From the IMG/VR virus record IMGVR_UViG_3300009500_000011, positions 104,585-168,584 of that record: DNA of 64,000 bases. The stretch is one strand, 5' to 3'. Each line of letters begins with the position of its first letter. Position 1 is the first letter of the stretch. The stretch is from a virus. Lineage: Duplodnaviria; Heunggongvirae; Uroviricota; Caudoviricetes. Shown here piece after piece: positions 14,279-62,944 of this stretch. The notes below the pieces were generated by a model. That model was not told where the DNA came from. It saw nothing but the letters and a program-made list of their open reading frames with translations, and did no database searches. Both the position numbers and the translations under genes were made by a program.

Positions 14279-14322
14279 AAAAAAGCCAACCATTTGTAAT
14301 AATAATGGGTGGCTTTTTGTTT
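14279..14322 (+). terminator. intrinsic terminator
   Basis: aagccaaccatttgtaataataatgggtggcttttt. Confidence 0.5.
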
Positions 14323-14349
14323 GAAAAACACTATTTATGATGGAGAGCA

Positions 14350-15051
14350 ATGTATATGCCAAAAAAACAATCTTCTCAAACACCTAGAAGAATTCCAACC
14401 ATAAGAACGGTACAATTTGAAGCCCAAACAATAAATCAAGAGAAGTTTGTAAAAAATATAGAAAGAAATGTTGTTTCATTCGGAATAGGTATACCAGGTT
14501 CAGGAAAAACGTATTTAGCATTAGCAACTGCTCTTAAAGCATTAGTTGAACAAAAATGTGAACGAGTTGTAATAACTAGACCAATGGTTGAAGCAGGTCC
14601 TTCTATCGGATTCCAACCTGGAAATGAAGAAGAAAAACTTGGAGTATATTTAAAACATATTTATGATATGATATATAAATTACTACCAAAAGTTTTGGCA
14701 GATGATTTGCTTGATTCAGGAAAAATATCAATTGGTGCTATTACATTTATGAGAGGAATGAATTTTGAAAACTCATATGTAATAATAGATGAAGCCGAAA
14801 ACTTAGACAAAAAATCATTTTATTTGTTATTAACAAGAATTTGTGAAGGGTCTAAAATGATTTTTTGTGGTGATACTGGCCAGGTTGATTTAAAAAATCC
14901 TAGTGAAAGCGGATTAAATGATGCAGTTTTAAAATTTCAAGGTAAAGAAAATTTTAGTGTAACTGAATTTACTATTGAAGATTGTCGCAGAAGTAAAGTT
15001 GTTATGGAAGTTATTAAAGCATATTTCCCTAACTCAACCAAGACAAAGTAA
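14350..15051 (+). CDS. phoH: PhoH-like ATPase
   Basis: GIGIPGSGKTYLALA Walker A; IIDEAEN Walker B; overall PhoH layout. Confidence 0.85.
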   Translation: MYMPKKQSSQTPRRIPTIRTVQFEAQTINQEKFVKNIERNVVSFGIGIPGSGKTYLALATALKALVEQKCERVVITRPMVEAGPSIGFQPGNEEEKLGVYLKHIYDMIYKLLPKVLADDLLDSGKISIGAITFMRGMNFENSYVIIDEAENLDKKSFYLLLTRICEGSKMIFCGDTGQVDLKNPSESGLNDAVLKFQGKENFSVTEFTIEDCRRSKVVMEVIKAYFPNSTKTK

Positions 15052-15102
15052 AACAAATTGCGTACTTAATTATGCAAACTTATTTTATGAGGCTTTTTTA
15101 GT

Positions 15103-18943: not shown

Positions 18944-18948
18944 ATCAT

Positions 18949-19020
18949 TGGAGTGGTAGCATAGAGGTAATGTACCGTTTTATCGCGAGCGGGATGAAGG
19001 TTCGAGTCCTTCCCCTCCAG
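18949..19020 (+). tRNA. tRNA-like gene with canonical T-arm and acceptor but unresolved anticodon arm (possible pseudo-tRNA or atypical tRNA)
   Basis: acceptor tggagtg/ccctcca (one mismatch); T-arm gaaggttcgagtccttc; no clean 5-bp/7-nt anticodon hairpin found by eye. Confidence 0.35.
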
Positions 19021-19040
19021 TTCTTTTTTAAAAAGAAATC

Positions 19041-23091: not shown

Positions 23092-23174
23092 GCTGGGGTG
23101 GCTCAGAGGCGACAGCGCCAGTTTTGTAAACTGGTATACAAACAACGTGGGTTCGAGTCCCACCCCCAGCCCCA
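23092..23174 (+). tRNA. tRNA-Thr (anticodon TGT) with unusual unpaired 12-nt variable loop, CCA encoded
   Basis: acceptor gctgggg/ccccagc; anticodon stem ccagt/actgg; loop ttTGTaa; variable tatacaaacaac. Confidence 0.6.
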
Positions 23175-24446: not shown

Positions 24447-24935
24447 TTGAAATATTTTTTTGATACCGAATTCATAGAAAATGGAGAAACTATAGACCTA
24501 GTAAGTATAGGTATTGTTTCTGAAATTGGACGTACTTACTATGCAATTAGTAAAGAATTTGACCCTACCAAGGCTGACCCTTGGGTTATTGAAAATGTTC
24601 TAACTCTTTTAGTTAAAGATGGTAAGCCAATCGAACCTGAAAATTGGAAAAGTCGAGAACAAATTAAGAATGATATTTTAACATTTGTTGATGATGAACC
24701 TGAATTTTGGGCTTGGTACGGAGCTTATGACTGGGTATGTTTAGCACAATTGTTTGGTAAAATGGTAAATTTACCAAAACATTTTCCCATGTATGCCAGA
24801 GATATAAAATTATTATCAGAATTAAAGGGTAATCCTCCTAAGCCTCCTCAAGCAGGAAGTAAGCATAACGCTCTTGAAGATGCAAAATGGAATAGAATGT
24901 TTTATAATATGCTTATCAAGATGCCTTACGTTTGA
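24447..24935 (+). CDS. DEDDh 3'-5' exonuclease (DnaQ-like / oligoribonuclease-like)
   Basis: Exo I FFDTEF; Exo III HNALEDA. Confidence 0.7.
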   Translation: MKYFFDTEFIENGETIDLVSIGIVSEIGRTYYAISKEFDPTKADPWVIENVLTLLVKDGKPIEPENWKSREQIKNDILTFVDDEPEFWAWYGAYDWVCLAQLFGKMVNLPKHFPMYARDIKLLSELKGNPPKPPQAGSKHNALEDAKWNRMFYNMLIKMPYV

Positions 24936-25103: not shown

Positions 25104-25188
25104 GGGACTTTGGCAGAGCGGTTATGCAACGGACTCTTAATCCGTGAGGGAAACCTCTATGTGGGTTCGACCCCCACAGGTCCCACCA
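25104..25188 (+). tRNA. class II (long variable arm, Ser-like D-arm) tRNA with anticodon CTT as read, CCA encoded
   Basis: acceptor gggactt/aggtccc; D-loop gagcggttat; perfect anticodon stem acgga/tccgt; loop ctCTTaa; variable arm gagggaaacctctat. Confidence 0.55.
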
Positions 25189-30888: not shown

Positions 30889-31186
30889 TGATAAGTGCGA
30901 AACATGCGATGGTAAAGGTACATGGGAAGTACCCTGGGATGAAGTTGATGATGCAACCAAGGCTATGCTTGGTGGCATTGATGACTTGATAAGTAAATTT
31001 CCTGGTTCTAAATTGGGTCCATTAGTTTATAATTGTCCTGATTGTCAACAAACTGGTTCGCAAGCCGTTCGAGAACAATGGTCAATAAATCGTTTAGACC
31101 CTAAAAAACATGAGTATGTTTTTCAATGTACTGATGGTGACCCTTGTTGGGAATGTAAAGCAGAGAAAAAAGAGCATTTAAAATGA
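30878..31186 (+). CDS. Cys-rich zinc-binding protein
   Basis: CETCDGKG ... CPDCQ ... CWEC. Confidence 0.5.
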   Translation: MNIDDKCETCDGKGTWEVPWDEVDDATKAMLGGIDDLISKFPGSKLGPLVYNCPDCQQTGSQAVREQWSINRLDPKKHEYVFQCTDGDPCWECKAEKKEHLK

Positions 31187-32001
31187 TTGATTATACAACA
31201 AAACCGGATTTAGGAAAATTATCTGAATCAGAATTTTTTGATTTAGATAATCCGCCTTTTGATATTCAAAAACATTGTTTATATTCAGTCATATCTGGTT
31301 CAAAAGCATATGGATTAGATACGCCTACAAGCGATACTGATATTCGTGGAGTTGTATATTTACCAGAAAGAATGTTGCTTGGTTTAGGTAGATTTGAACA
31401 AATTGAAAATCAAAGCAAAGATATTTGTTATTACAGTCTACAAAAACTTTTTAATTTGGCATTAAAAAATAATGTTCATGCAATGGAAATGCTTTGGATG
31501 CCAAAAAGAACGGTTAACTTTATACATCCTTTATTTGAGCAAGTTCTAGATAATAAAAATTTATTTATGTCTAAACGCATTGCATATACTTGTGGTGGAT
31601 ATGCTTTCCAACAAGTTAAGGTTGCCTTTACAAAGATGAAAAATAAGACTGGTAGAGTTAGTTTATTAGAACAATTTGGCTATGATACTAAATTTATGAG
31701 TCATAGTATTCGTATTTATAGAATGGCCCGTGAAGCATTAGAAACAGGTTTTCTAAATGTCTATCGACCTGATAGAGAGTTTTTACTTGATGTTAAGGTT
31801 GGTAAATATAAACTTGAAGATATTGTTGTTATGGGTAAAAATTCAGAAGGTAAAGATACTTTTGTTGGTGGATTATTAGCAGAAGAATTGCGACTTTTTA
31901 ATGAAGCACTTGCAAAAACAAAATTACCAACCGACCCTCCTTTCCAAAAAATTGAAAATCTTTTAATTAAAGTTCAAAAAGAAGCTTTATCTTTTAATTA
32001 A
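31183..32001 (+). CDS. Pol-beta superfamily nucleotidyltransferase
   Basis: GSKAYGLDTPTSDTDIRGV (GS...DxD catalytic signature). Confidence 0.55.
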   Translation: MIDYTTKPDLGKLSESEFFDLDNPPFDIQKHCLYSVISGSKAYGLDTPTSDTDIRGVVYLPERMLLGLGRFEQIENQSKDICYYSLQKLFNLALKNNVHAMEMLWMPKRTVNFIHPLFEQVLDNKNLFMSKRIAYTCGGYAFQQVKVAFTKMKNKTGRVSLLEQFGYDTKFMSHSIRIYRMAREALETGFLNVYRPDREFLLDVKVGKYKLEDIVVMGKNSEGKDTFVGGLLAEELRLFNEALAKTKLPTDPPFQKIENLLIKVQKEALSFN

Positions 32002-36149: not shown

Positions 36150-36233
36150 ATAATTAAACCACTTGAGTATAGTATACTTGTGTGGCCATAACTATTATAT
36201 CATGGCTTAATTTTGAAGGAGTATTTAAATTTT

Positions 36234-36779
36234 ATGTTCGAAAAACTAAAAACTTTTTTAAGCGTTGCCTATGATGTAATTCGCGGACGCGCTTTAGTAG
36301 AAACGCTTCATCCACGTAAACGTAATAAAGTTCGTTTGGAAATTATTCGTGCTGATGGCACAAGAGAATTACTTTCCGCAGGATGCAATAGTCGTGTAAA
36401 TAGCGGAGCAAACTGGCAAGCTTCACTTATGGGAAGTGCCGCAGGTACACCAGCAAATTATATGGCCCTTTCAACGGCAACATTATCTCCTGCTCTTACA
36501 GATACTTCACTTACCGGAGAAATTACTTCAGGTACAAATGCTGGACTTGCAAGAACACAAGCAACATATCAAAACTATACAGCACCAACAACCTTGGGCG
36601 GTCCTGCTTCATATCAATTGCAACATACATTTACTTCTTCAGCAACCGCTACAGTAAATAGTGCTGCTCTTTTTAATGCGTCTTCTTCTGGAACAATGTT
36701 CGTTGAAGCAAACCTTTCCCCCTCTGCCACACTTGCTTCTGGGGACCAGATAGTTTTAACGTGGAGTGTTCAAATTTAA
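36234..36779 (+). CDS. probable virion structural protein (Ser/Thr/Ala-rich)
   Basis: RBS AAGGAGtatttaaattttATG at 36234 (track start 36213 less likely). Confidence 0.5.
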   Translation: MFEKLKTFLSVAYDVIRGRALVETLHPRKRNKVRLEIIRADGTRELLSAGCNSRVNSGANWQASLMGSAAGTPANYMALSTATLSPALTDTSLTGEITSGTNAGLARTQATYQNYTAPTTLGGPASYQLQHTFTSSATATVNSAALFNASSSGTMFVEANLSPSATLASGDQIVLTWSVQI

Positions 36780-37310: not shown

Positions 37311-40300
37311 ATGCCAGAAGGCTTTGTTTCAGTCCCAGATAATAGTGATGCAAGTATAACAGTTAAGGTAGTTGATACAAATGAAATAAGCATTATATCA
37401 ACTACCTTAACCACAGCAGTTACAGGTGCAGGTATATTTACCGTAACGCCTGCATCTATTACTGGAATTGGTATCGGAACACCATTAATTGTTGACACTC
37501 TTGTAAGTGGTGTACAAGAATCTGTCAATGTTCTTTCTATTGTTGGTTCAAGTTTTTCTGCAAAATTTGCATATGCTCATGCTTCAGGTGTTCCATTAGT
37601 ATTAAATGTAGAGCGCCAGAATATGAGTATAGCAGACCCAACAACTTATGGCAATATTGCTAAGGTTGCAAGTGGTACTGCATCTATAACTGATATTGGT
37701 TTAACTGTAAGACCTATTCCTACTTCGATTCCTGCTGGGACAAATACCATTGGAAATGTTGCTATAACTAGTCCTAATGGTGCTGCTGCTGGTATATATG
37801 GCCTTGTTAATCCTTATGGTACTACTCGTATTAGTGGAGAGCCAATAGGTTTATTTACTGATACTTTTGATGGTACAACTTTTGATACTGTAAATCGTTG
37901 GAATACGCCTACTGTGGTTAATGGTGGTGCATATTCACAAAATAATGGAGATTTAAGTTTAACAACTGGTCTTACTGCTAATGCTCAATCTATTGTTACA
38001 TCGCAACCAAATTTTGTGCATGTAGGTAGTAGTTTTCTTGAATATACAACAGTTGTTCAATTAGAATCTAGTCCAATAGCTACAGGTTGTCATCGTTATT
38101 GGGGAACAGGAACTTCTCCAACAGTTATTTCTGCGACAAACCCTGTTCAAAATGGATATGGATTTGAAGTAACAACTACAGGAACAATGAATGCAGTTGT
38201 TTATGCATCTGGAACTAAAGTTGGTTCTTATCCATTATCTATTCCAACGGATGGACTTCCACATAGATATGCAATTATTATTCGTTCAGATGTTGTTTTT
38301 TATTATGTAGATAACATCGAAGTTCCAGTTGCCGAATTTATGTTTGTTTTACCATCTGTACAAACTCTACCAATAAGATTTCATATTTTAAATGGAACTT
38401 CTGCTTTAACAAAAGCGCCAATTCTTTATGCTTATGGTGTTGCTATGTCCGATACGGCAGAAAATTCATCTGCTATTTCTGATGGTACTTATCCTTGGCG
38501 TAAGGCTTCTGTTGAAAATATAAATCCTAGTTCATCTGATTATGGGTTAGTAACTAGAAATATTCCCAATAGTACATCTAATCAAGCAATCGTTTCAAAT
38601 GATTTATCTACGACAGGAACTATACAAAATTTAAATGATACTGTTTCTTTAACATTAAATGGTATATCAAGTTGGATTGCTGAATTACAAGGAACTTGGA
38701 CAGGAACAGTACAATTTGAAGCATCAATTGATGGTATTAATTTTGTACCATTACGCGGCAGACAAAGTGGTATGGGTGGAAACACTATACTTTCAACTCA
38801 GGTTACAAGTACAAATGGGTATTGGCGTGGTAATGCTGCTGGGTTTAATATTTTTAGAGTACGTGCAATAACTGCTTTAACTGGTCCTGCAACTATAAAT
38901 ATTAAAGCAAGCATTGGTACAGATGCTGTCTTTTTAGATGCAGGTTTACCTCCAGGAACTGATTATATCGGTCAGGTTGGAGGAACTACCACAACATATC
39001 CTGTTACAGCCGGTGCAGTAATTACAACTACTCCAGGAACTACTGGTGTATCCGTTTATTCAGATACATATGGTAATATGAGAACTATTGTTTCTGATTA
39101 TGTTCAAACAGGAACACTTGTTAATTTAAATGATACTATTGTTGTAAATCAAAATGGTGGTTATACTGCTTGGAATGTATCATTATCTGGAACTTGGACT
39201 GGCGTAGTAACTTTTGAAGGTTCAGTAGATGGTACTAATTGGCAATCTATTACGGGTAGATTAGCCGGTGTAGAAAGTGGTCCTTTATATAATTCAACAG
39301 GTCTTAACGGTGTGTATAGAGGAAATGCTGCTGGTCTTCAATTCAGAGTAAGATTAAGTGCTATAACTAGCGGAAGTGTTACTGTTACAATTCGTTTAGG
39401 TCAAGGACCTTATGGAGTTTTCTTAAATTCTGCATTACCTGTTGGAACTAATAATATCGGTAGTATTTCTACTAGCACATTTCCTTCAACAGGCGTAAAC
39501 AATGCCCCAGGTACAGTTGGACAGACGCTATTATCTGATAGTGACGGTTCATTAAGAATACATGCTGCTGATATTTATTCTTCGGGAACAATTAATACAT
39601 TAGGCGCTACTGTTCAAATACAACCTGTTGGTCATGCTACTGCTTTAATTAATATTCAAGGAAGTTTTGTTGGTACGTTTCAATTTGAAGTTTCATTAGA
39701 TAGTTTAACGTATTATCCTATTGAAGTCAAACAAGTAGGTGTTTCAACAACGACATTATTAACAACCTCTAATGTTGGTGGAATTTTTAGAGGAAATATT
39801 GCCGGGGCTTTATATTTTCGTGTTCGCGCAACAAGTTGGACTTCAGGAAGTGCTACAGTTTATATTAACGGTTCACATGCTACTGCCCCTGTATTTTTAG
39901 ATGCTGGTCTTCCTATAGGTACAAATAACCTTGGAAGCACACAATTAGCGGACGGAACAAATAGTTCTCAATTAGCCAAGGTAACATCTGATGGGGCTCA
40001 ACTTGTTGCTATAGATTCAACAACATCATTGCCTGCTGGAACTAATTCAATTGGAAATGTTACATTAAATAACGACCTTACCTATACTGGAACTATTCTT
40101 GCCGGAACACAATTAAGCCATATTATTATACCTTTAAATGGTGCTAATACTATCGGTGTTAGCTGGACAAATAACAGTACAAATGCTATTTTACAATTTC
40201 AAGCAAGTGTTGATGGAGTAAACTATGTAGGTATTGTTCCTTATGAATCAAGTGTTTTGAATTCTTATGTTTCTACAGTATCGTCAGTATTATTTAACGG

Positions 40301-40886
40301 GCGTGTAAGTGTTGCTGGTTATAGTTACTTTAGAATTAGTAATCAATCCGCAACAGGTAGTGTTGGTTCAAATACAATCAATGTTAATTTTACTGTTAGT
40401 GGTAATTCTTCTATTGTAACTCTTGTAGACCCTATTCCACCTGGTACAAATGCTATCGGTACTGTTGGAGTAACAGCATTGCCATCAATACCTGCTGGTG
40501 GTAATACAATTGGAAATGTAAAATTAGTTGATACTGCTGGAAGCAATCAAGCTTCTGTAAATACAAATGGTTCTCTTTCGGTTTTATCTTACAATGATTC
40601 AACTACGACATATTATTATGCTACCGCAGCTAGTGCAAATGTTCTTGTTAAAAATGGTCCCGGCAGATTAATCTCTGTTACTGTTTTTAGTGCAAGTACA
40701 GGCATTTATGGTATTCTTTTTGATACTAATGGAACTCCAGTAGCAGGAACAACCACTCCATTAGTTGTTATACCTGCTTATGCCCCGGCAGGATATACAG
40801 TTTTTTGTGATATTCCTTTTGCAAATGGTTTGACTATTTTTGGAACCGGCTCAACCGGACCTACATATACTGTAAATTATCGTTAA
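37311..40886 (+). CDS. tail fibre / receptor-binding-like protein with four internal ~110-aa domain repeats
   Basis: Gly/Thr/Ser-rich 1191 aa; repeated WTGTVQFEASIDG..N...RGNAAG..FRVRA modules each preceded by LPxGTNxIG motifs. Confidence 0.6.
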   Translation: MPEGFVSVPDNSDASITVKVVDTNEISIISTTLTTAVTGAGIFTVTPASITGIGIGTPLIVDTLVSGVQESVNVLSIVGSSFSAKFAYAHASGVPLVLNVERQNMSIADPTTYGNIAKVASGTASITDIGLTVRPIPTSIPAGTNTIGNVAITSPNGAAAGIYGLVNPYGTTRISGEPIGLFTDTFDGTTFDTVNRWNTPTVVNGGAYSQNNGDLSLTTGLTANAQSIVTSQPNFVHVGSSFLEYTTVVQLESSPIATGCHRYWGTGTSPTVISATNPVQNGYGFEVTTTGTMNAVVYASGTKVGSYPLSIPTDGLPHRYAIIIRSDVVFYYVDNIEVPVAEFMFVLPSVQTLPIRFHILNGTSALTKAPILYAYGVAMSDTAENSSAISDGTYPWRKASVENINPSSSDYGLVTRNIPNSTSNQAIVSNDLSTTGTIQNLNDTVSLTLNGISSWIAELQGTWTGTVQFEASIDGINFVPLRGRQSGMGGNTILSTQVTSTNGYWRGNAAGFNIFRVRAITALTGPATINIKASIGTDAVFLDAGLPPGTDYIGQVGGTTTTYPVTAGAVITTTPGTTGVSVYSDTYGNMRTIVSDYVQTGTLVNLNDTIVVNQNGGYTAWNVSLSGTWTGVVTFEGSVDGTNWQSITGRLAGVESGPLYNSTGLNGVYRGNAAGLQFRVRLSAITSGSVTVTIRLGQGPYGVFLNSALPVGTNNIGSISTSTFPSTGVNNAPGTVGQTLLSDSDGSLRIHAADIYSSGTINTLGATVQIQPVGHATALINIQGSFVGTFQFEVSLDSLTYYPIEVKQVGVSTTTLLTTSNVGGIFRGNIAGALYFRVRATSWTSGSATVYINGSHATAPVFLDAGLPIGTNNLGSTQLADGTNSSQLAKVTSDGAQLVAIDSTTSLPAGTNSIGNVTLNNDLTYTGTILAGTQLSHIIIPLNGANTIGVSWTNNSTNAILQFQASVDGVNYVGIVPYESSVLNSYVSTVSSVLFNGRVSVAGYSYFRISNQSATGSVGSNTINVNFTVSGNSSIVTLVDPIPPGTNAIGTVGVTALPSIPAGGNTIGNVKLVDTAGSNQASVNTNGSLSVLSYNDSTTTYYYATAASANVLVKNGPGRLISVTVFSASTGIYGILFDTNGTPVAGTTTPLVVIPAYAPAGYTVFCDIPFANGLTIFGTGSTGPTYTVNYR

Positions 40887-41542: not shown

Positions 41543-44500
41543 ATGTCGCTACTCTTGTTGTATAACCGTAAACTTTTTCAGTCTACATTAACTAATTCTA
41601 ATTTAACTTCTGATTCAAATTCAAGAAAAACTTATTTTTCAAGAACTAATGTAGATTCAAGTTTGTTTTCTGATTCTTCTGCTAGAAGTGCAAATTATAA
41701 TAGAGCATCATCAGATATATTCAACTTATCTGATAGTCTTTTGCGTAATACGTTTTATGCACGTAGTTTTCAAGAAATATATTCTTTTTTCGATTCATTA
41801 AATAGACAAGTTGATAACAGTAGAAGTGAATCAGAAATTTTTAGTACGATTGATATTCAAAATTTATCACGATTTTATAATCGTTCATCCACAGATTCTT
41901 TTAATTTTTCTGATAGTAATTCTCGGTTTTTAGATTTTGCTCGTCTTCAATCTGATGTTTTAATTTTTAATGACTTAATTAATCGTTCCACTAATGTAAA
42001 TCGTTCTATAACCGACCAATCTATAGAGATAGATTCTTTAACAAGACAAATTATTGATAATCGCCAAACTTCGGACGTATTCAATACTATTTTATCTTTT
42101 ACAGAACAGCAGTTTTTATCTAGGTCAACTACCGATGGATTAAGTTCTTTTACAGATTCTTCATCGTATAGTCGAGTTTTGCCACGTTCTGTTATGGATA
42201 CTTTTAGTTTTTCGGATTCAAATTCTATTTCTCAATTACTTCTAAGAACATTTAGTGAAAGTTATTCTTTCAATGATGTTCTTAGTAATTCTGGAACTCA
42301 TATCGCTTTTTTAAGTGATGTATTAACAAATTTTGTAGATTCAATAAGCGCCGAACAGTTTGTTTCAAGAACAATGTCTGATAATCTAACGACATTAGAT
42401 TTAGTAACTTCAGTTAAGACTTTTTATAGATTAAATTCAGATAATACTAACTTTGCAGATGCTATCTCTTCTGCTAATATTTTAAATAGATTTAATATTC
42501 AAAATTTAAATTTTAATGATTCACTTAATAATCAAAATATTTTTAATAGAAATAATAGTGATTTAGTTAATAATTTTAATGATTCCACTTTAATATCTCA
42601 ATTTTTAAATCGAACCTCAAATGAGGTGTTTTCAACATCTGATATTTTATCTTTGGCGCAATTTTTGTCTCGTAATCCAACAGATATTCTTACAACGTTA
42701 GATAATAACGGTAGAAATATCTTTATTTCTAAATCAGTAATTGATTCTATTTTAACTTTCGATAGTCTTCAAAGCACGAAGATTGCTAATTTAAATCTTC
42801 AAGAAACATTTAGCTTTAGTGATGTTCTTTTAAGAAATATTATAGATTTCCGTACAAATTCAGACAGTTTTGCGTTTGTTGATTTTGTCAATAATTATAA
42901 TATATTTACAAAATCAATTGTTGAATCTTTCCAAACAAATGATTTGCTAACAAGGGAGTATATCTCAAATCAAAATCTTCAAGAAAACTTTAATTTTTTA
43001 GATATATTATCTGAAAGTCAATTTTTACAAAGACAATGTTCAGAACAATTTAATTTTATTGATGGTATATTGAGAGAAGTAATCATTAATAGGGCCATGA
43101 ACGAAACTCTATTGGAATCAGATGACATTACTACTGCTTTAGTTTTCTTTAGGAATATAAATGAACAATTCTCTACCGCAGCATCTGTAAGTTATGTACA
43201 TTCATTCGTTAGAAATTTGTTAGAAAATTTTGCAACTTCTAATTCCATTAGCAGGGCTCTTATTTCTCCAAGAAATACTTCTGATTTCTTTAATCAAATT
43301 GTCGATACTTTAAATTCATATAAAATTGCCAATTTTAATCTTGATGAAACTTTTGCATTTAATGATTCTTTATCTCAAATGTCTCTGGTTTTTAGGAATT
43401 TTTCAGATTTATTTAGTTTTTTTGATTTTACAACAAGTAATGCAATAATTCCTAGAAATATTGAAGAATCATATCCTATAAGTGATTCATTGTCCAATAA
43501 CAATTTGTTTTCAAGACTTTTCGAAGAAGAATTTAATTTTACTGATGCTGTTAATATAAGTCAGAGTTTGGCGCGTCAATTCTTAGATAGTTTTATTTTT
43601 TTTGATAATGTTTCAACAAATAGTTCAGGCGGTTTGTTTTTAAGAGTAATATCAGATGTTTTAAATACTAATGATTCTAGTGAAATAAATCAATTTTTAA
43701 ATCGTGAAAATACCGATACATCATTAACTAGTGATTCGCTCCAAAACTCCAATATTTTAAATAGACAATTTCAAGACTTATTAAGTATAGCAGATACCTT
43801 AACTTCTACTAATGAATTTAATAGATTTTTTTCTGATTTGTTGCAAACTAATGATGCTGCAAATTCAAATTACGTTTATAATTCAAATTTATCTGATAAT
43901 TTAAACACAAGTGATTCGCTAAATAGATTTTTTCTAAATATTGCAAACTTAGCAGAAACATTTACAACAACAGATTCCAACTCCAGAGAATCTATTTTGG
44001 CGCGAAGTCTATCTGAAACATTTTCTCTATTGGATTTATTAACTAGAGTTTTATCTAAAGTAAGGTTATTAAACGATAATCTTCCCTTTACTTTTGATTC
44101 ACTTGCAACATATAGTACGTTTTTTAGAGAACTGCAAGAAGAGTATATATCATCCGAAGAATTAATTAACGAATCTATTTATAAAAGGCAACTTGAAAAT
44201 ACATTTACAACTTTGGATGAGTTGATGCGTGTTTTACTTATTGCTAGGGAAGTATTTGAAGTCGGAGAAATATCAGATACTGTTGCAAGTAAAGCAGTTA
44301 TTCTAAGATTTGTAGAAGAATTTTTTGAATTAGTAGATAATATTGCCTTAAATCAAAGAATTAATCGTAGTTCTGAGTATCAAAGTAACTTCTCGGATAT
44401 TCTAAATAGAGAAGTTATATTAGAAAGATTTTTGTCTGATTCAAGTCAATTTTTTGACAATTCTTTACTTCAAAAAGTTGGTGCAAGATTTTTCGTTAAT

Positions 44501-44878
44501 TTATTTGATGAATACTCATTTACTGATGAACTTATTGGGACAAGTTTGTTAGAAAGATTTTCTCAGGACATATTACAAACAGCCGATGAAGTTGCTCGTT
44601 TAGTAAATAATAATAGAAGTGTAGAAGAAATTTTTGAATTCTTAGATATTGCTTCGCGTAAACCAGTATTTAAAATTGGTCAAAGAGTTAAATTCAGATA
44701 TAATGGTGCCTTATGTCAAGGTAAAATTATTTTAAGATATTATGCAACAAATCCTAGTGAAGGCATTAGATATCAAGTTAATGTTGATTTTTGTAGTAAT
44801 TGGAAAGCAATTGGAAAAACAACACGAATTGATGTAGATTTAAATGATTTATTATCAATTAATCCTCAGAATTGGTAA
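41543..44878 (+). CDS. giant tandem-repeat protein (~50 copies of a ~21-aa unit) with C-terminal PQNW domain
   Basis: repeating ...SDxFxFxDSLxRxxxxxRxxx... units across >1000 aa; unique C-terminal 80 aa shared with ORF 35895. Confidence 0.6.
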   Translation: MSLLLLYNRKLFQSTLTNSNLTSDSNSRKTYFSRTNVDSSLFSDSSARSANYNRASSDIFNLSDSLLRNTFYARSFQEIYSFFDSLNRQVDNSRSESEIFSTIDIQNLSRFYNRSSTDSFNFSDSNSRFLDFARLQSDVLIFNDLINRSTNVNRSITDQSIEIDSLTRQIIDNRQTSDVFNTILSFTEQQFLSRSTTDGLSSFTDSSSYSRVLPRSVMDTFSFSDSNSISQLLLRTFSESYSFNDVLSNSGTHIAFLSDVLTNFVDSISAEQFVSRTMSDNLTTLDLVTSVKTFYRLNSDNTNFADAISSANILNRFNIQNLNFNDSLNNQNIFNRNNSDLVNNFNDSTLISQFLNRTSNEVFSTSDILSLAQFLSRNPTDILTTLDNNGRNIFISKSVIDSILTFDSLQSTKIANLNLQETFSFSDVLLRNIIDFRTNSDSFAFVDFVNNYNIFTKSIVESFQTNDLLTREYISNQNLQENFNFLDILSESQFLQRQCSEQFNFIDGILREVIINRAMNETLLESDDITTALVFFRNINEQFSTAASVSYVHSFVRNLLENFATSNSISRALISPRNTSDFFNQIVDTLNSYKIANFNLDETFAFNDSLSQMSLVFRNFSDLFSFFDFTTSNAIIPRNIEESYPISDSLSNNNLFSRLFEEEFNFTDAVNISQSLARQFLDSFIFFDNVSTNSSGGLFLRVISDVLNTNDSSEINQFLNRENTDTSLTSDSLQNSNILNRQFQDLLSIADTLTSTNEFNRFFSDLLQTNDAANSNYVYNSNLSDNLNTSDSLNRFFLNIANLAETFTTTDSNSRESILARSLSETFSLLDLLTRVLSKVRLLNDNLPFTFDSLATYSTFFRELQEEYISSEELINESIYKRQLENTFTTLDELMRVLLIAREVFEVGEISDTVASKAVILRFVEEFFELVDNIALNQRINRSSEYQSNFSDILNREVILERFLSDSSQFFDNSLLQKVGARFFVNLFDEYSFTDELIGTSLLERFSQDILQTADEVARLVNNNRSVEEIFEFLDIASRKPVFKIGQRVKFRYNGALCQGKIILRYYATNPSEGIRYQVNVDFCSNWKAIGKTTRIDVDLNDLLSINPQNW

Positions 44879-45366: not shown

Positions 45367-45440
45367 AATTGCGTTAATTACAGATACTTCTTGTATATTG
45401 GTTCGAGTCCATTAAGTGTAGTCGGTACACAACTGTAGTT
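45367..45440 (+). repeat. motif copy R3 AATTGCGTTAATTACAGATACTTCTTG followed by T-arm mimic and 3' complement (aattacag / ctgtagtt)
   Basis: 5' aattacag pairs with 3' ctgtagtt (8 bp, one G-U) enclosing ggttcgagtcc. Confidence 0.5.
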
Positions 45441-45465
45441 GTTCCATTCGTTTAAATTTTATTTA

Positions 45466-45499
45466 ATCCTTGGGAATATATTTCTCAAGGATTTTTTTG
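45466..45499 (+). terminator. intrinsic terminator
   Basis: atccttgggaatatatttctcaaggattttttt. Confidence 0.65.
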
Positions 45500-45519
45500 T
45501 TGTCATAAAGGAAAAAAGA

Positions 45520-47205
45520 ATGAAATACAATACTAAAACAGTAAATGCTGGTCCAGGAACAAAAATGATAAATCTTGCAGGCGGAGAAGCTTTTAAAGTT
45601 GATAATCGTACTGCATTATATTTAACTTCTGCAACTTCTTTAGGTGGCGGTCAAGGAAATAAATATTATGTTTCTGCAAATCAAGAATACAAAAATATTC
45701 TTGAACTAATTGAAAAGGTTTCCGCTCAAGACCCAGAATTTATTTTCCAATTGGCTGCATATTGTCGTCAAGATTTATACCTTCGTAGTATTCCAACGGT
45801 ATTATTTATCGAAGGTATTCGTGCAATGCATAAGCAAAAAAAGGCCAATGCACCATATCCAGTAGATGCATCTAAGTATGCAAATGCTATTTTTGGTCGT
45901 GCTGATGAAATTGTTGAAGCAGTTGCATATTGGCTTGGAGTTGAAGGCCATCACAAATTGCCTTCCCCTCTTCGTAAATCTTTGACCATTGCTTTAAATT
46001 CATTTGATGAATACCGCTTGCTTAAATATAATCAAGAAGATAAGCAAGTTACATTTAAAGATATTGTTCGTCTTGTGCATCCAGAACCAAAAACTGATGT
46101 GCAAAGTGCAATTTTCAAATACTTCATCAAGGATGAAATCAGTCCAGAATTAATGCCAAAGGCAACTGCCCGCAAGGCTTTGCTTTCACGTACTCAATTT
46201 GATGAAGAAGCACAACGCTTGATGAGAGATTCATCTGCTACTTGGGAAACTGTAATTGCTAAATTCGGTTCGACTAAAGAAATTTGGGAAGCAGTTATTC
46301 CAAATATGGGATACATGGCTTTATTACGTAATCTTAATAATTTTCTTAAAAAAGAAGTAGATTTAGATTTAGTAATTCCTCGCCTTGTGAATCCGCAAGA
46401 AATTCGTAAAAGCAAGCAATTGCCTTTCCGTTTTTACACAGCAATGAAACAACTTGGTGTAGAAGATAACAATAAGAATTCTACGATGACATATTATGGA
46501 TATTCCGATTCAGTAAAAACAGCATTTGAAAAATGGCGTAATGTAAATTCTAGCGATGGAATTTCTCGTTTACGTAATGCTCTTGGTGTTGCTATGAATA
46601 TTGCAGTAGAAAATGTTCCTCACCTTTCAGGTCGTACCGTTGTTGCGGCAGACCTTTCTGGTTCTATGAGTCAACCTCTTAATAACAAATCAAATGTAAC
46701 TTATCGTGAAATCGCTTGTATTATGGCTGGTATTGCTGGTTCAATAGCACCAGATAATGTAATTTGTGGATTTGGTTGTTCATTTGCTGTTGCTAAAAAA
46801 GGCAAAGATATTCTTGAAACTGCAAATAATATTGATAAATTAAATGTTGGAATGTCAACGGATGCATGGCGTATTCTTGATTACTTGCTTACAAACAAAA
46901 TTTTTGTAGATAGAGTCATGTATTTTACAGATACACAATGTTATAATTCATATGGGGGCGCAAATTTAAACGAACTTTGGAAAAAATACAAAGTTCTTTG
47001 CCAATCAACTGGTAAAAAAGTTCCTGTTCTTTATGAAGTAAATCTTGCAGGTGGTAATACATCTAGTTTTAATTCTGAACAAAGAGTTGCTACCATTGGT
47101 GGATGGTCTGAAAGAATTTTTGATTTAATTACTACTTATGAAACTGACCCTCGTCAAGCAATAAGTAAAATTAAAGAAAAATATTCAGATTTAGTATCTG
47201 TTTAA
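45520..47205 (+). CDS. rsr: Ro60 (Rsr) ortholog: TROVE module + C-terminal vWA domain
   Basis: GGGQGNKYYVS, FQLAAYCRQD, ALLRNLNNF, LPFRFYTAMKQL and vWA MIDAS VVAADLSGSMSQ align with conserved Ro60 blocks; ATG 45520 with RBS AAAGGAAAAAAGAATG (track start 45439 is upstream read-through). Confidence 0.8.
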   Translation: MKYNTKTVNAGPGTKMINLAGGEAFKVDNRTALYLTSATSLGGGQGNKYYVSANQEYKNILELIEKVSAQDPEFIFQLAAYCRQDLYLRSIPTVLFIEGIRAMHKQKKANAPYPVDASKYANAIFGRADEIVEAVAYWLGVEGHHKLPSPLRKSLTIALNSFDEYRLLKYNQEDKQVTFKDIVRLVHPEPKTDVQSAIFKYFIKDEISPELMPKATARKALLSRTQFDEEAQRLMRDSSATWETVIAKFGSTKEIWEAVIPNMGYMALLRNLNNFLKKEVDLDLVIPRLVNPQEIRKSKQLPFRFYTAMKQLGVEDNNKNSTMTYYGYSDSVKTAFEKWRNVNSSDGISRLRNALGVAMNIAVENVPHLSGRTVVAADLSGSMSQPLNNKSNVTYREIACIMAGIAGSIAPDNVICGFGCSFAVAKKGKDILETANNIDKLNVGMSTDAWRILDYLLTNKIFVDRVMYFTDTQCYNSYGGANLNELWKKYKVLCQSTGKKVPVLYEVNLAGGNTSSFNSEQRVATIGGWSERIFDLITTYETDPRQAISKIKEKYSDLVSV

Positions 47206-58130: not shown

Positions 58131-58213
58131 CGGCGGGTTCCCGTAGCGGCGAACGGTCTGCTTTTACATGGCAGCATACCACATCGTGGGTTCGAGTCCC
58201 ACCCTGCCGACCA
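58131..58213 (+). tRNA. tRNA-Val (anticodon TAC) with unpaired 11-nt variable loop, CCA encoded
   Basis: acceptor cggcggg/cctgccg; stem ctgct/ggcag; loop ttTACat; variable cataccacatc. Confidence 0.6.
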
Positions 58214-58685: not shown

Positions 58686-58776
58686 CTCGGTGTGGTGTAA
58701 CTGGATAGCACAAAACGCTACGAACGTTTAGGGAGCCGCAAGGCCATTGGGGGTTCGAATCCCTCCATCGAGGCCA
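58686..58776 (+). tRNA. tRNA-Arg (anticodon ACG) carrying a 19-nt variable arm, CCA encoded
   Basis: Arg-type D-loop aactggatag; perfect stem aaacg/cgttt; loop ctACGaa; variable agggagccgcaaggccatt. Confidence 0.6.
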
Positions 58777-60792: not shown

Positions 60793-60867
60793 GGGGAACT
60801 AGTGCTAATGGTAACACGACTCGCTTGCACCGAGTAATTCAGAGTTCGATTCTCTGGTTCTCCACCA
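60793..60867 (+). tRNA. tRNA-Ala (anticodon TGC) with G3:U70, CCA encoded
   Basis: acceptor ggggaac/gttctcc; perfect stem actcg/cgagt; loop ctTGCac. Confidence 0.75.
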
Positions 60868-60891: not shown

Positions 60892-61110
60892 ATGTCATTT
60901 AGAAAATTTGTATTTGAAAGAAGTGAAGATGTAAGCGGAGTATCAGGAATCGGTATTGTTGCTGAAGGCGTAGAATTTTCAAATGGTAAAACAGTAATTG
61001 CTTGGTGCGTTCCTGGAAAACCAAATTCAGCAGTTATATACGATAATATACACGAAGCAATAGAAGTACATGGTCACGAAGGCCGAACAGTAATAAAATG
61101 GATAGATTAA
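60892..61110 (+). CDS. hypothetical protein
   Basis: ORF track. Confidence 0.5.
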   Translation: MSFRKFVFERSEDVSGVSGIGIVAEGVEFSNGKTVIAWCVPGKPNSAVIYDNIHEAIEVHGHEGRTVIKWID

Positions 61111-61111
61111 G

Positions 61112-61513
61112 ATGGATGAATTTGAAGAAATTATTGATGTTTTAGTCCGAAAAATTGAACTATCTGATGATAGATATGTTTTGGTTATAAATGGTAAATA
61201 TCAATTAGTAGTTGATGCAGATTGTTGCTCTGAAACATGGATTGAACATATTATTGGTGTAAAACAATTATTAGGTTCAAAAATAAGAAGTGTAAAAAGA
61301 TTAGAATTTCCATCTGAATATATTGAATGCTTGACGAAAGCAGAACCATCTGCCGACTATACACAATATTATGGATTAGCTATAACTTCTAGAAATGGGC
61401 AAATGATTATTGATTTTCGTAATCGGAGCAATGGTTATTATGGTGGAAGTATTCAGTTGCTTATTAGCGAAAAAATTCCTTCAAATTTAAGATTGATAAC
61501 CGAGGATGAATAA
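61112..61513 (+). CDS. hypothetical protein
   Basis: ORF track. Confidence 0.5.
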   Translation: MDEFEEIIDVLVRKIELSDDRYVLVINGKYQLVVDADCCSETWIEHIIGVKQLLGSKIRSVKRLEFPSEYIECLTKAEPSADYTQYYGLAITSRNGQMIIDFRNRSNGYYGGSIQLLISEKIPSNLRLITEDE

Positions 61514-61515: not shown

Positions 61516-61716
61516 ATGTTCTGCGGTAAAAAACCAACTCAAGATGAAATAATGAAAATCAAAGAGTTTGCTGCTTTCTTAAGAAATATAAATTCTATCG
61601 AAAAAGATGAGAACTTGACAAAAGAAGAAAAAAAAGATAAACTAAACGAAATTATAGCGCAAGCAAATAATAAAATACAAAAAGAATGGGAAAATGGCAG
61701 AAAAAAACGACGATAA
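61516..61716 (+). CDS. hypothetical Lys/Glu-rich protein
   Basis: ORF track. Confidence 0.45.
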   Translation: MFCGKKPTQDEIMKIKEFAAFLRNINSIEKDENLTKEEKKDKLNEIIAQANNKIQKEWENGRKKRR

Positions 61717-61924
61717 GTTTGAACTAAAAGGTTTTGTACTTAAATCACATCCCGGAGCAACTTTTTCAGTTCGATTAGAAGGAATAGAAAAAGATGTTCT
61801 TTGTCATCTTTCTGGGAAAATGCGAATGAATAATATTCGTGTTCTAGAAGGTGATACTGTGGATGTTGAAATGGATGTATATGATTTATCTAGGGGTAAA
61901 ATCATATTTAGGTATAAGAAATAG
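61694..61924 (+). CDS. infA: translation initiation factor IF-1 homolog (S1-like OB fold)
   Basis: LKGFVLKSHPGATFSVRLEG...VLCHLSGKMRMNNIRVLEGDTVDVEMDVYDLSRGKIIFRYK aligns along its full length with bacterial IF-1 (MQGTVLE..PN.MFRVELENGH.V.AHISGKMRKNYIRIL.GD.V.VE..PYDLSKGRI.FR). Confidence 0.85.
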   Translation: MAEKNDDKFELKGFVLKSHPGATFSVRLEGIEKDVLCHLSGKMRMNNIRVLEGDTVDVEMDVYDLSRGKIIFRYKK

Positions 61925-62081
61925 ATGGTCGATAGACTATTACATTTTCTTCAAAATAAATATGTTCCCGCACTATGGGCAGTTTTATTAACAGTATGGT
62001 TAATTGGTGCTATAATTGATACAACTCCCAAAGTATATAATGTAATAAATTTAATAAATAAACAAATAAAGGTCAATCATC

Positions 62082-62360
62082 ATGTTTGAAATTGAATTTG
62101 TTGGTGGATATCATGATGGAAGAATTGAAAAGGTTGCTAAAACAAATCCTACAAAAACATTAACAATTAGCCAAAAAATGTCTACGAATGATTTAACTGG
62201 AGAAATTAAATCTCTTGTAAGCAGCTACAAATTAGATAGGAAAACTGAAGGTGTAAATGGTTTTCCACGCATTATTTATATAATTGATGCAGAAATTATA
62301 GAAACATCATTGATGCAAGATTTAATTAAAAATACAAGACACCTTCCAGAAGGATTATAA
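62082..62360 (+). CDS. hypothetical protein
   Basis: ORF track. Confidence 0.5.
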   Translation: MFEIEFVGGYHDGRIEKVAKTNPTKTLTISQKMSTNDLTGEIKSLVSSYKLDRKTEGVNGFPRIIYIIDAEIIETSLMQDLIKNTRHLPEGL

Positions 62361-62361
62361 A

Positions 62362-62562
62362 ATGGCAGAAAAAGTTCAAAGTGATTCAACTATGTTTTTT
62401 AATTCGCGAGAAGATTCTGAAAAATTAATTAAAGAAGTTAAACATATTTCGACTACTAAGGTTCAAATTCCATTGCATGATGAATTACAAAAATTGATAT
62501 CCCATTCTGTTGGGATACCTCCTGAAGTAATGAATATTGACAAAACTAAAGAAAAAGAGTAG
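62362..62562 (+). CDS. hypothetical protein
   Basis: ORF track. Confidence 0.45.
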   Translation: MAEKVQSDSTMFFNSREDSEKLIKEVKHISTTKVQIPLHDELQKLISHSVGIPPEVMNIDKTKEKE

Positions 62563-62577: not shown

Positions 62578-62652
62578 GGGGTTATCATATAGTGGCTATT
62601 ATGACGGTTTTGCAAATCGTTCACCTCAGTTCGACTCTGAGTAGCTCCACCA
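62578..62652 (+). tRNA. second tRNA-Ala (anticodon TGC) with G3:U70, different body, CCA encoded
   Basis: acceptor ggggtta/tagctcc; stem acggt/atcgt; loop ttTGCaa; T-arm ctcagttcgactctgag. Confidence 0.6.
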
Positions 62653-62868: not shown

Positions 62869-62944
62869 GGCTCTATCGTATAGCGGTTTATTATAGGGGT
62901 TTCATAAGCCTTTGACGAAAGTTCGACTCTTTCTAGAGCCTCCA
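62869..62944 (+). tRNA. tRNA with anticodon CAT (Met or lysidine-Ile), weak G-U-rich anticodon stem, CCA encoded
   Basis: perfect acceptor ggctcta/tagagcc; loop ttCATaa; T-arm gaaagttcgactctttc. Confidence 0.55.

What the first reader, a model, noticed from the sequence alone, without database searches (positions are those of the whole stretch)
61694..61924. Phage-encoded translation initiation factor IF-1
The 76-aa ORF aligns across its whole length with bacterial InfA, including the GKMR..IR..GD.V.VE..YDL..G.I motif. It lies among tRNA genes. It could bias initiation toward phage mRNAs, notably the leaderless transcripts predicted here.
Basis: partly seen in the sequence, partly recalled or inferred. 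Interest (0 to 1): 0.55.

Follow-up and report, generated by a model that had tools for sequence, protein, structure and literature searches.

The report
Divergent IF-1 gene in huge phage
A roughly 275-kb bacteriophage carries its own intact, selectively maintained copy of bacterial translation initiation factor IF-1, which is a real but already-reported kind of gene for huge phages, and its role during infection has not been tested.

Summary
ORF 61694-61924 (+) encodes a 76-aa full-length IF-1. It scores 82.8 bits on NCBIfam infA TIGR00008 (cut-off 61.15) and 67.4 bits on Pfam PF01176. Its best PDB sequence and fold matches are all bacterial IF-1, with rmsd 1.3 Å to 30S-bound IF-1.

Eight of nine published 30S-contact residues are identical and the ninth is Arg→Lys. 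Between two strains of this phage, infA differs at 8 nucleotides, all synonymous (neutral P≈4e-6).

The setting is phage: 32 tRNAs, RNA-repair genes, PHROG-family neighbours, and the exact protein on a 274.8-kb contig. It is not the cellular secY-adk-map-infA context.

The protein is an orphan long branch: ≤62% identity to anything, no supported donor, and among the lowest infA-model scores of the IF-1s compared.

IF-1 genes in huge phages are already published (Al-Shayeb 2020; a Jug phage core gene), so this is a new member of a known kind.

The leaderless-mRNA idea is not supported. infA overlaps the upstream ORF by 23 nt, over half of the window's genes are tightly packed internal cistrons, and the literature ties leaderless initiation to IF2 and IF3, not IF1.

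Most likely it binds the host 30S A site and sustains or tunes initiation during infection.

The parts
61694..61924 (+). infA-like CDS: 76-aa translation initiation factor IF-1 homologue (single OB-fold domain)
   Evidence: HMM and PDB matches; AF2 model and Foldseek: the top 14 hits are all IF-1; 8 synonymous and 0 nonsynonymous differences against the strain on L001
61516..61716 (+). Upstream 66-aa ORF whose last 23 nt overlap the infA start. infA is therefore an internal cistron, probably translationally coupled. Only GGG at -6 to -4 lies upstream, so there is no well-spaced SD.
   Evidence: The same overlap is conserved in L001-L006. No Pfam or PHROG family.
60892..61513 (+). Two co-directional genes at the head of the same tRNA-bounded block: a 72-aa Pfam Acb5-family protein (phrog_7499) and a 133-aa DUF7448 protein (phrog_2650)
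   Evidence: Both are phage protein families. The Acb5-like gene has pN/pS 0.03.
61925..62562 (+). Three small co-directional ORFs immediately downstream of infA (54, 92 and 66 aa), with no family assignment. The first starts at the base after the infA stop codon.
60793..60867 (+). tRNA-Ala(UGC), upstream boundary of the block (absent at this position in the L001 strain)
62578..62652 (+). tRNA-Ala(UGC), downstream boundary of the block
62869..62944 (+). tRNA(CAU). It is not an initiator tRNA: G1:C72 is paired and only two G:C pairs lie at the base of the anticodon stem.

Best explanation
This is an intact, expressed-type gene of a huge (roughly 275 kb), low-GC (about 32%) tailed phage, and it encodes a functional IF-1. 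The protein most likely binds the A site of the host 30S subunit as cellular IF-1 does: the short helix 41-45 and its flanking basic residues against the 530 loop and the flipped A1492/A1493 of helix 44, and the beta3/beta5 face against S12. In that way it would supply or supplement IF-1 activity during infection. It would then be one component of the phage's own translation and RNA-upkeep toolkit, alongside 32 tRNAs, Rnl1 RNA ligase, Thg1, RlaP, Ro60 and PhoH, which keeps initiation running, and possibly re-tunes it, while host gene expression is shut down or under attack. Shown here: homology, fold, retention of contact residues, purifying selection and phage context. Inferred: ribosome binding, and any benefit or selectivity for phage mRNAs.
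For: (1) The match to the infA equivalog HMM is above its curated cut-off and full length; Pfam and PDB searches agree. (2) The AF2 model (pLDDT 76) has five beta strands plus a short helix. The 14 best Foldseek PDB hits are all bacterial IF-1, including ribosome-bound 1hr0_W (TM 0.85, rmsd 1.3 Å) and 9fco_I. (3) The residues reported to contact G530 (K39, M42), A1492/A1493 (R41, R46) and S12 (H35, Y60, R64, R66), together with the essential C-terminal Arg (PMC10913371; PMC4611024), map to H38, K42, R44, M45, R49, Y63, R67, K69 and R73. Eight are identical and one is a conservative change, which is as good as the cellular IF-1s in the same table. (4) Two strains that differ by about 10% in DNA around the gene encode the identical protein. 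All 8 differences are synonymous (pS 0.168, pN 0, neutral P=3.7e-6), whereas neighbouring genes have pN/pS up to 0.73. (5) Context: phage PHROG families flank the gene, the window holds 32 tRNAs and RNA-repair genes, and the exact protein is on a 274.8-kb contig and in 5 further assemblies from other runs. (6) IF-1 has been acquired and kept by several unrelated huge-phage lineages: Lak, LR756511, LR756508, Phosso, DAC and IMG/VR contigs of 160-395 kb. It has been reported as IF1 in huge phages and as a Jug-phage core gene.
Against: There is no experimental or expression evidence for any phage IF-1 in the literature searched. The protein scores among the lowest on the infA model of the IF-1s compared: 82.8 bits, against 128 for a typical bacterium, 97 for Mycoplasma and 83-116 for other phages. 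The beta1-beta2 loop, which in cellular IF-1 inserts into the helix 44 minor groove, is altered (LPNAMF[K/R]V becomes HPGATFSV). The basic residue at position 25, which is K or R in 81% of the cellular set, is Ser here. The beta2-beta3 turn is one residue longer. The host and its own IF-1 are unknown, so compatibility cannot be judged. No other protein translation factor or ribosomal protein was found in the 64-kb window.
Confidence: 0.62

Rival explanations
1. Re-programmer or inhibitor. The phage protein still docks in the 30S A site, but because of its altered helix-44 loop and beta2-beta3 turn it changes initiation checkpoints (IF3/IF2 cooperation, subunit joining, start-site fidelity). 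It would then favour phage mRNAs or depress host translation, rather than simply supplementing IF-1.
For: The contact residues of the helix region are retained, while the helix-44-inserting loop and the N-terminal strand are the most divergent parts. The protein is a long branch under current purifying selection, i.e. it has a derived but fixed sequence. Only about a third of the window's genes have an SD-like core, and upstream regions are A-rich, so phage mRNAs may use a different initiation mode.
Against: There is no direct evidence. Similar loop variants (LPG, LPQG, HTTD) occur in cellular IF-1s of Bacilli, Mollicutes and CPR bacteria, so the divergence need not mean a new activity. The host IF-1 is unknown.
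Confidence: 0.17
2. Off-ribosome RNA chaperone or antiterminator. The OB-fold protein acts like a cold-shock protein on phage RNAs (melting structure, antitermination, assisting tRNA or RNA-repair transactions) rather than in initiation.
For: E. coli IF1 has RNA-chaperone and transcription-antitermination activity and complements a cspB cspC double knock-out in B. subtilis (PMC3017892). The gene lies in a window rich in RNA-repair and tRNA genes.
Against: The residues that are kept are exactly the ribosome-specific ones, which a generic chaperone would not need. There is no match to cold-shock-domain families; only weak S1 and RsgA_N similarities appear below their cut-offs. Phage IF-1-like proteins that have lost those residues (P0161, P0012, P0136) fit this rival better than the window protein does.
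Confidence: 0.12
3. Not phage. The gene is the housekeeping infA of a small-genome bacterium or a mis-binned or chimeric contig, or it is a recently captured passenger gene with no function in the phage.
For: No unambiguous virion hallmark (major capsid, portal, terminase) was found inside the 64-kb window; there is only a weak 'head protein' PHROG hit at 36213-36779. Some 'phage' database records with IF-1 are really bacterial DNA.
Against: The window has no ribosomal-protein, rRNA or other housekeeping context, whereas the closest cellular homologue sits in secY-adk-map-infA-rpsM-rpsK-rpsD-rpoA. The immediate neighbours belong to phage-only PHROG families. The window also has a T4-type Rnl1, a BCS1-like ATPase shared with more than 200 mostly jumbo phages, and 32 tRNAs on one strand. 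The same gene order occurs in 6 independent assemblies. No donor is closer than 62% identity, and purifying selection argues against a recent passenger.
Confidence: 0.04

Closest known systems
Bacterial translation initiation factor IF-1 (InfA; NCBIfam TIGR00008, Pfam PF01176; structures 1AH9, 1HR0, 6C00)
   Same: Same length class (76 aa against 71-72) and same OB fold with the short helix between strands 3 and 4. The SGKMRMNxIR...GD...YDL..G.I core is identical, 8 of 9 published 30S-contact residues are identical, and the score is above the equivalog cut-off.
   Different: It is encoded by a phage, outside any ribosomal or housekeeping operon. It is only 43-55% identical to solved IF-1s, whereas those are 64-80% identical to C. 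difficile IF-1 (PMC10913371). The beta1-beta2 loop is altered (HPGATFSV), the beta2-beta3 turn is one residue longer, 'DV' replaces 'S/T-P' before YDL, and R66 is Lys.
IF-1 genes of huge or jumbo phages (Al-Shayeb et al. 2020, PMC7162821; Lak megaphages; Jug phage core gene, PMC12880540; Sinorhizobium phage Phosso; PHROG 30201)
   Same: A single-domain IF-1 carried by a phage of more than 200 kb together with many tRNAs and other translation or RNA genes. It matches phrog_30201 at 8.8e-19. The presumed role is 'interception or redirection of host translation'.
   Different: It is not closely related to any of them: 41-54% identity to the phage records and at most 62% to one IMG/VR contig. No neighbouring genes are shared with them. 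This phage lineage has no megablast match in the phage collection, and its IF-1-specific motif is absent from IMG/VR.
Derived IF-1-like proteins of abundant ~255-263-kb jumbo-phage contigs (cluster of P0087/P0161; also P0012, P0136)
   Same: Shared unusual N-terminus (MAKNSNKFEMEG against MAEKNDDKFELKG), the one-residue-longer beta2-beta3 turn, and the 'VEMD' segment. They are the nearest neighbours in the distance tree, and the contigs have a similar GC (0.32).
   Different: Those proteins have replaced three to six of the nine contact residues (for example SGRLQINHIH and VDI in P0161), whereas the window protein keeps the canonical set. Tree support for the grouping is weak (45% bootstrap or less), and no other homologous genes occur in the 20-kb flanks.
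Cold-shock-domain RNA chaperones (CspA family) and eIF1A/aIF1A
   Same: OB-fold, small, RNA-binding. E. coli IF1 overlaps functionally with Csps. eIF1A and aIF1A are the structural homologues that occupy the same A-site position (Foldseek ranks 15-50).
   Different: No CSD family match. The eIF1A and aIF1A models score 14-16 bits against cut-offs of 91-108. The protein lacks the N- and C-terminal tails of eIF1A.

Membership tests
Bacterial IF-1 (InfA, TIGR00008/PF01176) | Full-length match to the family HMM above the curated cut-off | tested here: met
   TIGR00008: 82.8 bits against 61.15, profile 2-69/69. PF01176: 67.4 bits against 30.2. Calibration: cellular IF-1s score 97-128 bits and other phage IF-1s 83-116 bits.
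Bacterial IF-1 (InfA, TIGR00008/PF01176) | [quoted passage not shown] | tested here: met
   AF2 model: pLDDT 76.4, elements E8-19, E23-28, E34-39, H41-45, E55-61, E67-71. The top 14 Foldseek PDB hits are all IF-1, with TM 0.69-0.85. The model rests on a shallow 5-sequence alignment.
Bacterial IF-1 (InfA, TIGR00008/PF01176) | Conserved basic and aromatic residues that contact the 530 loop, A1492/A1493 of helix 44 and protein S12, plus the essential C-terminal Arg | tested here: met
   H38, K42, R44, M45, R49, Y63, R67 and R73 are identical; K69 replaces Arg. The beta1-beta2 loop that enters the helix 44 groove is divergent.
Bacterial IF-1 (InfA, TIGR00008/PF01176) | Binds the 30S A site and stimulates IF2/IF3-dependent initiation; essential in vivo | not testable with these tools
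   Needs 30S binding or footprinting assays, reconstituted initiation, or complementation of an infA depletion.
Bacterial IF-1 (InfA, TIGR00008/PF01176) | Maintained by purifying selection as a protein-coding gene | tested here: met
   Window against L001 allele: 8 synonymous and 0 nonsynonymous differences, pS 0.168, neutral P 3.7e-6. Only two alleles were available.
Bacterial IF-1 (InfA, TIGR00008/PF01176) | Typical (not universal) cellular context in the secY-adk-map-infA-rpmJ-rpsM region | tested here: not met
   The cellular homologue P0004 has that context. The window gene lies between tRNAs among phage PHROG families. This is expected for a phage copy and is not a defining feature of the protein family.
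Phage-encoded IF-1 of huge phages (PHROG 30201; Al-Shayeb 2020) | IF-1 homologue encoded on a phage genome, typically over 200 kb and with many tRNAs | tested here: met
   phrog_30201 at 8.8e-19. The exact protein is on a 274,834-bp contig. The window has 32 tRNAs. Flanking genes are in phrog_7499, phrog_2650 and phrog_1017. Jumbo-phage BCS1-like ATPase and T4-type Rnl1 are present. No capsid, portal or terminase was seen within the window itself.
Cold-shock domain (CspA-type) RNA chaperones | Match to the CSD family with RNP1/RNP2 motifs | tested here: not met
   No CSD family among Pfam hits up to E=1. The only other hits are RsgA_N (18.3 bits, cut-off 27) and S1 (14.1 bits, cut-off 22).
eIF1A / aIF1A | Match to the archaeal or eukaryotic family models; N- and C-terminal extensions | tested here: not met
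   TIGR00523: 15.7 bits against 102.9. NF003082 and NF003084: 14-15 bits against 91-108.
Initiator tRNA (tested for the neighbouring tRNA-CAU as a possible partner of infA) | Mismatched 1:72 pair and three consecutive G:C pairs (29-31:39-41) in the anticodon stem | tested here: not met
   G1:C72 is paired. The stem has G29:C41 and G30:C40, but U31:G39.

The most novel reading that the evidence does not exclude
The window protein may belong to a jumbo-phage-specific IF-1 lineage, marked by a shared N-terminus and a longer beta2-beta3 turn with the P0161/P0012/P0136 group. On that reading the lineage has been evolving inside phages for a long time. This member would keep the ribosomal A-site contacts but carry a remodelled helix-44 loop, making it a phage-tuned initiation factor that changes start-site selection or subunit-joining checkpoints in favour of the phage's weak-SD, A-rich mRNAs, or that makes initiation immune to a host shut-off or defence acting on IF-1. 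Its sister proteins, which have lost the contacts, would have moved on to a different, non-ribosomal role.
Probability: 0.15. Interest if true: 0.65.

Novelty: new member of a known kind. Interest (0 to 1): 0.3.

Why it matters
Huge phages are known to carry pieces of the translation apparatus, but no phage IF-1 has been studied experimentally, as far as the literature searched shows. This copy is a good candidate for such a study. It is short, it keeps the full set of published ribosome-contact residues, and it is demonstrably under purifying selection. It is also far enough from every cellular IF-1 (62% identity at most) that any functional difference, such as altered fidelity, altered kinetics or host-range restriction, should be measurable. 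On its own, as an annotation, it adds a new divergent lineage to an already reported class and does not change current understanding.

Tried and rejected
1. The idea that loss of the invariant Pro before YDL (DVYDL) is a phage signature. In the pattern-selected cellular set Pro was 100%. In the unbiased 150 representatives, 17 have Val there, including a large family that looks cellular, so the idea was rejected.

2. The idea that the neighbouring tRNA(CAU) is an initiator tRNA forming an initiation module with infA. It was rejected because 1:72 is paired and only two G:C pairs are present in the anticodon stem.

3. A search for sister orthologues through the lineage-specific motif HPGA.F.VRL in IMG/VR. 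Only chance matches were found and none was an IF-1. The metagenome and genome scans also gave nothing closer than 62%.

4. Donor or host inference by distance tree. There is no supported sister group (bootstrap 45% at most) and no phylum signal.

5. Synteny with other IF-1-bearing huge phages. No genes are shared around infA. One IMG/VR group has distant RlaP and metallophosphatase homologues nearby. tRNA adjacency is not general.

6. A search for virion hallmark genes. The two giant ORFs (1191 and 1111 aa) have no Pfam, PHROG, PDB or phage-database match. Walking off the window edge gained only 1.6 kb.

7. Environment or host from the run accessions. No paper was found.

8. Other translation factors or ribosomal proteins in the window. 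None was found among ORFs of 50 aa or more.

9. Rfam scan. It found only tRNAs, with no regulatory RNA near infA. The promoter and terminator consensus scans around infA were not informative in this AT-rich DNA.

Full report
**1. Observation**

Window 61694-61924 (+) is an ATG-to-TAG ORF of 76 codons. It matches bacterial IF-1 over its whole length.
- NCBIfam TIGR00008 (infA, equivalog): 82.8 bits against a curated cut-off of 61.15, profile positions 2-69 of 69.
- Pfam PF01176: 67.4 bits against 30.2.
- phmmer against the PDB returns only IF-1 chains, E=1e-18 to 6e-13.
- The archaeal and eukaryotic eIF1A/aIF1A models score far below their cut-offs, and no cold-shock-domain family matches.
- An AlphaFold2 model from a shallow 5-sequence alignment (mean pLDDT 76) has five strands and a short helix at 41-45.
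- The 14 best Foldseek hits in the PDB are all bacterial IF-1, including 30S-bound copies: 1hr0_W at TM 0.85 and rmsd 1.3 Å, and 9fco_I at rmsd 1.3 Å.
- The gene is flanked by tRNA-Ala(UGC) at 60793-60867 and 62578-62652 and by tRNA(CAU) at 62869-62944. The window holds 32 tRNAs by ARAGORN, 29 of them confirmed by Rfam.

**2. Is it a phage?**

The window is about 32% GC, and almost all of its genes are on the + strand. It encodes:
- DnaG-type primase, class I RNR large subunit, T4 Rnl1-type RNA ligase and a Ro60/TROVE protein;
- a BCS1-like AAA ATPase with about 30% identical homologues in 226 phage records, mostly jumbo phages;
- Thg1, PhoH, RlaP, an Rv2179c-like exoribonuclease, a sigma-70 region-2 protein and several metallophosphatases.

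The genes next to infA fall in phage PHROG families: phrog_7499 (Pfam Acb5), phrog_2650 (DUF7448) and phrog_1017 (NADAR). The exact IF-1 protein is on a 274,834-bp ENA contig and on shorter contigs from five other runs, with the same gene order. The window is 100% identical to one of them (L004, a Logan contig from run SRR5829579) and about 90% identical to the long contig around infA.

There are no ribosomal-protein genes, no rRNA and no housekeeping operon. By contrast the closest cellular homologue found by the word-indexed search (P0004, 56% identical) sits in the classical S8-L6-L18-S5-L15-SecY-Adk-Map-InfA-S13-S11-S4-RpoA-L17 array.

I did not find a capsid, portal or terminase gene inside the 64 kb. 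There is only a weak 'head protein' PHROG hit at 36213-36779. The two giant ORFs (1191 and 1111 aa) match nothing. 'Phage' is therefore very well supported by context but not by a virion hallmark in this window.

**3. Is the gene functional?**

The two available alleles (window/L004, and L001/2/3/5/6) differ at 8 of 231 nucleotides, and all 8 changes are synonymous. By Nei-Gojobori counting, pS=0.168 and pN=0. With 21% synonymous sites, the neutral probability of eight synonymous changes out of eight is 3.7e-6. Neighbouring genes over the same stretch have pN/pS from 0.03 to 0.73, and several carry indels. The gene is therefore under purifying selection in the phage.

**4. Does it keep the ribosome-binding surface?**

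NMR titration and modelling of C. difficile IF-1 on 1HR0 give the following contacts (PMC10913371):
- K39 and M42 on the G530 backbone;
- R41 and R46 on the flipped A1492/A1493;
- H35, Y60, R64 and R66 facing S12;
- the beta1-beta2 loop in the helix 44 minor groove.

The C-terminal Arg69 of E. coli IF1 is essential for 30S binding (PMC4611024). Through the alignment these map to phage H38, K42, R44, M45, R49, Y63, R67, K69 and R73. Eight are identical and one is Arg→Lys. That is as good as the cellular IF-1s in the same table: the Acinetobacter protein has K at the M42 and R64 equivalents, and P0004 has K at R46.

The invariant core G41-K-M-R44, N46, I48-R49, G53-D54, Y63-D-L65, G68 and I70 is intact.

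The differences are concentrated in four places:
- strand 1 and the beta1-beta2 loop, where LPNAMF(K/R)V becomes HPGATFSV;
- position 25, a K or R in 81% of the cellular set, which is Ser here, while Arg appears two residues later where Glu is usual;
- the beta2-beta3 turn, which is one residue longer (EGIEKD);
- the residues before YDL, which are D-V instead of S/T-P.

**5. How divergent, and from where?**

An exhaustive HMMER scan of 1.84 billion cluster representatives found 5,463 relatives at E≤0.001, none at E<1e-30 and none above about 60% identity. Scans of 185,579 species genomes, IMG/VR and JGI metagenomes gave at most 62% identity, on one contig type of 205-355 kb that shares no other gene with the window.

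The protein is 43-55% identical to solved IF-1s, while those are 64-80% identical to C. difficile IF-1. Its TIGR00008 score (82.8) ties with the huge phage LR756508 (82.7) for the lowest among the IF-1s compared. The others were Acinetobacter 128, Mycoplasmopsis 97, Lak 103, LR756511 116, Phosso 110 and DAC19 91.

A distance tree places it next to three unannotated proteins (P0012, P0087, P0136), but with 45% bootstrap or less. One of these clusters (P0087/P0161) is encoded on very frequently assembled contigs of 255-263 kb at 32% GC, with an RNAP beta-like gene, DNA ligase and topoisomerase IV, so it is another jumbo phage. Those proteins share the window protein's N-terminus and its longer turn, but they have replaced three to six of the nine contact residues, for example SGRLQINHIH and VDI in P0161. 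Phage IF-1-like proteins therefore range from canonical to strongly derived, and the window protein is at the canonical end for the interface. No cellular donor can be named.

**6. How it most likely works**

The best-supported reading (confidence about 0.6) is a working IF-1 that occupies the host 30S A site and supplies or supplements IF-1 activity in the infected cell. It would be part of a broad phage investment in translation and RNA upkeep (32 tRNAs, Rnl1, Thg1, RlaP, Ro60, PhoH).
- Shown: homology, fold, interface residues, selection and context.
- Inferred: binding, activity and benefit.

The rivals are:
- (a) a factor that docks normally but re-tunes or inhibits initiation through its altered helix-44 loop (about 0.17);
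- (b) an off-ribosome RNA chaperone or antiterminator, an activity documented for E. coli IF1 (PMC3017892) but hard to square with retention of ribosome-specific residues (about 0.12);
- (c) not phage, or a passenger gene (about 0.04).

**7.

The leaderless-mRNA suggestion is not supported.
- infA starts 23 nt inside the preceding ORF, with only GGG at -6 to -4 upstream, so it is itself an internal and probably coupled cistron.
- 54 of 100 + strand junctions are 20 nt or shorter.
- 36 of 101 starts have an SD-like core of at least 4 nt, against about 11 expected.
- Leaderless initiation is described as IF2-dependent and IF3-antagonised, with no special role for IF1 (PMC4611024).
- The nearby tRNA(CAU) is not an initiator tRNA.

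**8. Novelty**

Phage IF-1 is already known. Al-Shayeb et al. 2020 list IF1 and IF3 among the genes of huge phages that may intercept host translation (PMC7162821). 'Translation initiation factor 1A' is one of 39 core genes of the Jug gut phages (PMC12880540). Sinorhizobium phage Phosso is annotated with IF-1. Lak megaphages and Bacteroides DAC/SJC phages carry unannotated copies. PHROGs has a family for it (phrog_30201, labelled 'unknown function').

Of the 36 'phage' database records that matched, at least the two Acinetobacter phage MD-2021a records are bacterial chromosome. I found no experimental work on any phage IF-1.

The finding is therefore a new and unusually divergent member of a known kind. 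Interest is 0.3. What this analysis adds is the evidence for selection, the retained ribosome interface, and the contrast with derived phage IF-1-like proteins.

Noticed in passing
L189-L191 (gene at 10001-10225 in each); proteins P0087, P0161, P0163, P0012, P0136: An IF-1-like protein of another, very frequently assembled jumbo-phage group (contigs of 255-263 kb, GC 0.32, next to an RNAP beta-like gene, DNA ligase and topoisomerase IV; listed in 202 index blocks) has lost several ribosome-contact residues (SGRLQINHIH, VDI). It shares the window protein's N-terminus and longer beta2-beta3 turn. It may be the Jug-phage 'IF1A' core gene, but that is unverified.
   Followed up: partly
window 11631-16095, 24447-24935, 31183-32001, 45439-47205: A dense RNA and tRNA maintenance set: T4 Rnl1-type RNA ligase, Thg1 tRNA-His guanylyltransferase, PhoH, an Rv2179c-like 3'-5' exoribonuclease, an RlaP RNA-repair nucleotidyltransferase, and a Ro60/TROVE protein with a vWA domain. 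No Y-RNA-like partner was detected by Rfam.
   Followed up: partly
window 23092-23174, 25104-25188, 58131-58213, 58686-58776, 18948-19021: Unusually long tRNAs for normally short classes: Thr(UGU) 83 nt, Lys(CUU) 85 nt, Val(UAC) 83 nt (not recovered by Rfam) and Arg(ACG) 91 nt. One tRNA-like gene is called with a 4-base anticodon (lowest Rfam score, 35 bits). These could reflect introns, long variable arms or a frameshift-suppressor-like tRNA.
   Followed up: no
window 37311-40886 and 41543-44878: Two adjacent giant ORFs (1191 and 1111 aa) have no Pfam, PHROG, PDB-sequence or phage-database (tblastn) match. They follow a small ORF with weak head or fiber-protein similarity and an HNH endonuclease.
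   Followed up: partly
L095 3546-3619 (LR756511) and L096 5610-5681 (LR756508): In two published huge phages a UAG-suppressor tRNA (anticodon CUA) lies 0.35-2.4 kb downstream of their IF-1 gene.
   Followed up: no
L002 1-605 and 5880-7073: One strain of this phage (ENA ERZ25039472 contig_52515) carries two IS605 OrfB/TnpB (Cas12f-like) genes a few kb upstream of infA. They are absent from the window and from L001.
   Followed up: no
window 60892-61110: A 72-aa protein of the Pfam family named Acb5 (phrog_7499) heads the infA gene block and is under strong purifying selection (pN/pS 0.03). In the L001 strain, NADAR, Clp_N, NAMPT and NMNAT-like genes follow downstream. This region may combine anti-defence and NAD-salvage functions.
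   Followed up: no
phage collection records CAKLQH020000005.1 and CAKLQF020000005.1 (L098): 'Acinetobacter phage MD-2021a' records carrying infA are ordinary bacterial chromosome (leuBCD, truA, ansA, gadX). The unannotated Staphylococcus, Listeria and Enterococcus 'phage' records that matched (OR84xxxx) may be similar host contamination, so counts of phage IF-1 from this collection are inflated.
   Followed up: partly
window small ORFs; AdoMet_dc at about 10715-11146: Among 52 small ORFs, single matches were found to S-adenosylmethionine decarboxylase, a dCMP/cytidine deaminase zinc-binding domain and a HicA mRNA-interferase toxin. Only the AdoMet_dc ORF's coordinates were resolved.
   Followed up: no
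window 60793-60867 compared with L001: The window strain has an extra tRNA-Ala(UGC) copy upstream of the infA block, whereas the L001 strain has a second tRNA-Pro(UGG). The tRNA content differs between closely related strains.
   Followed up: no
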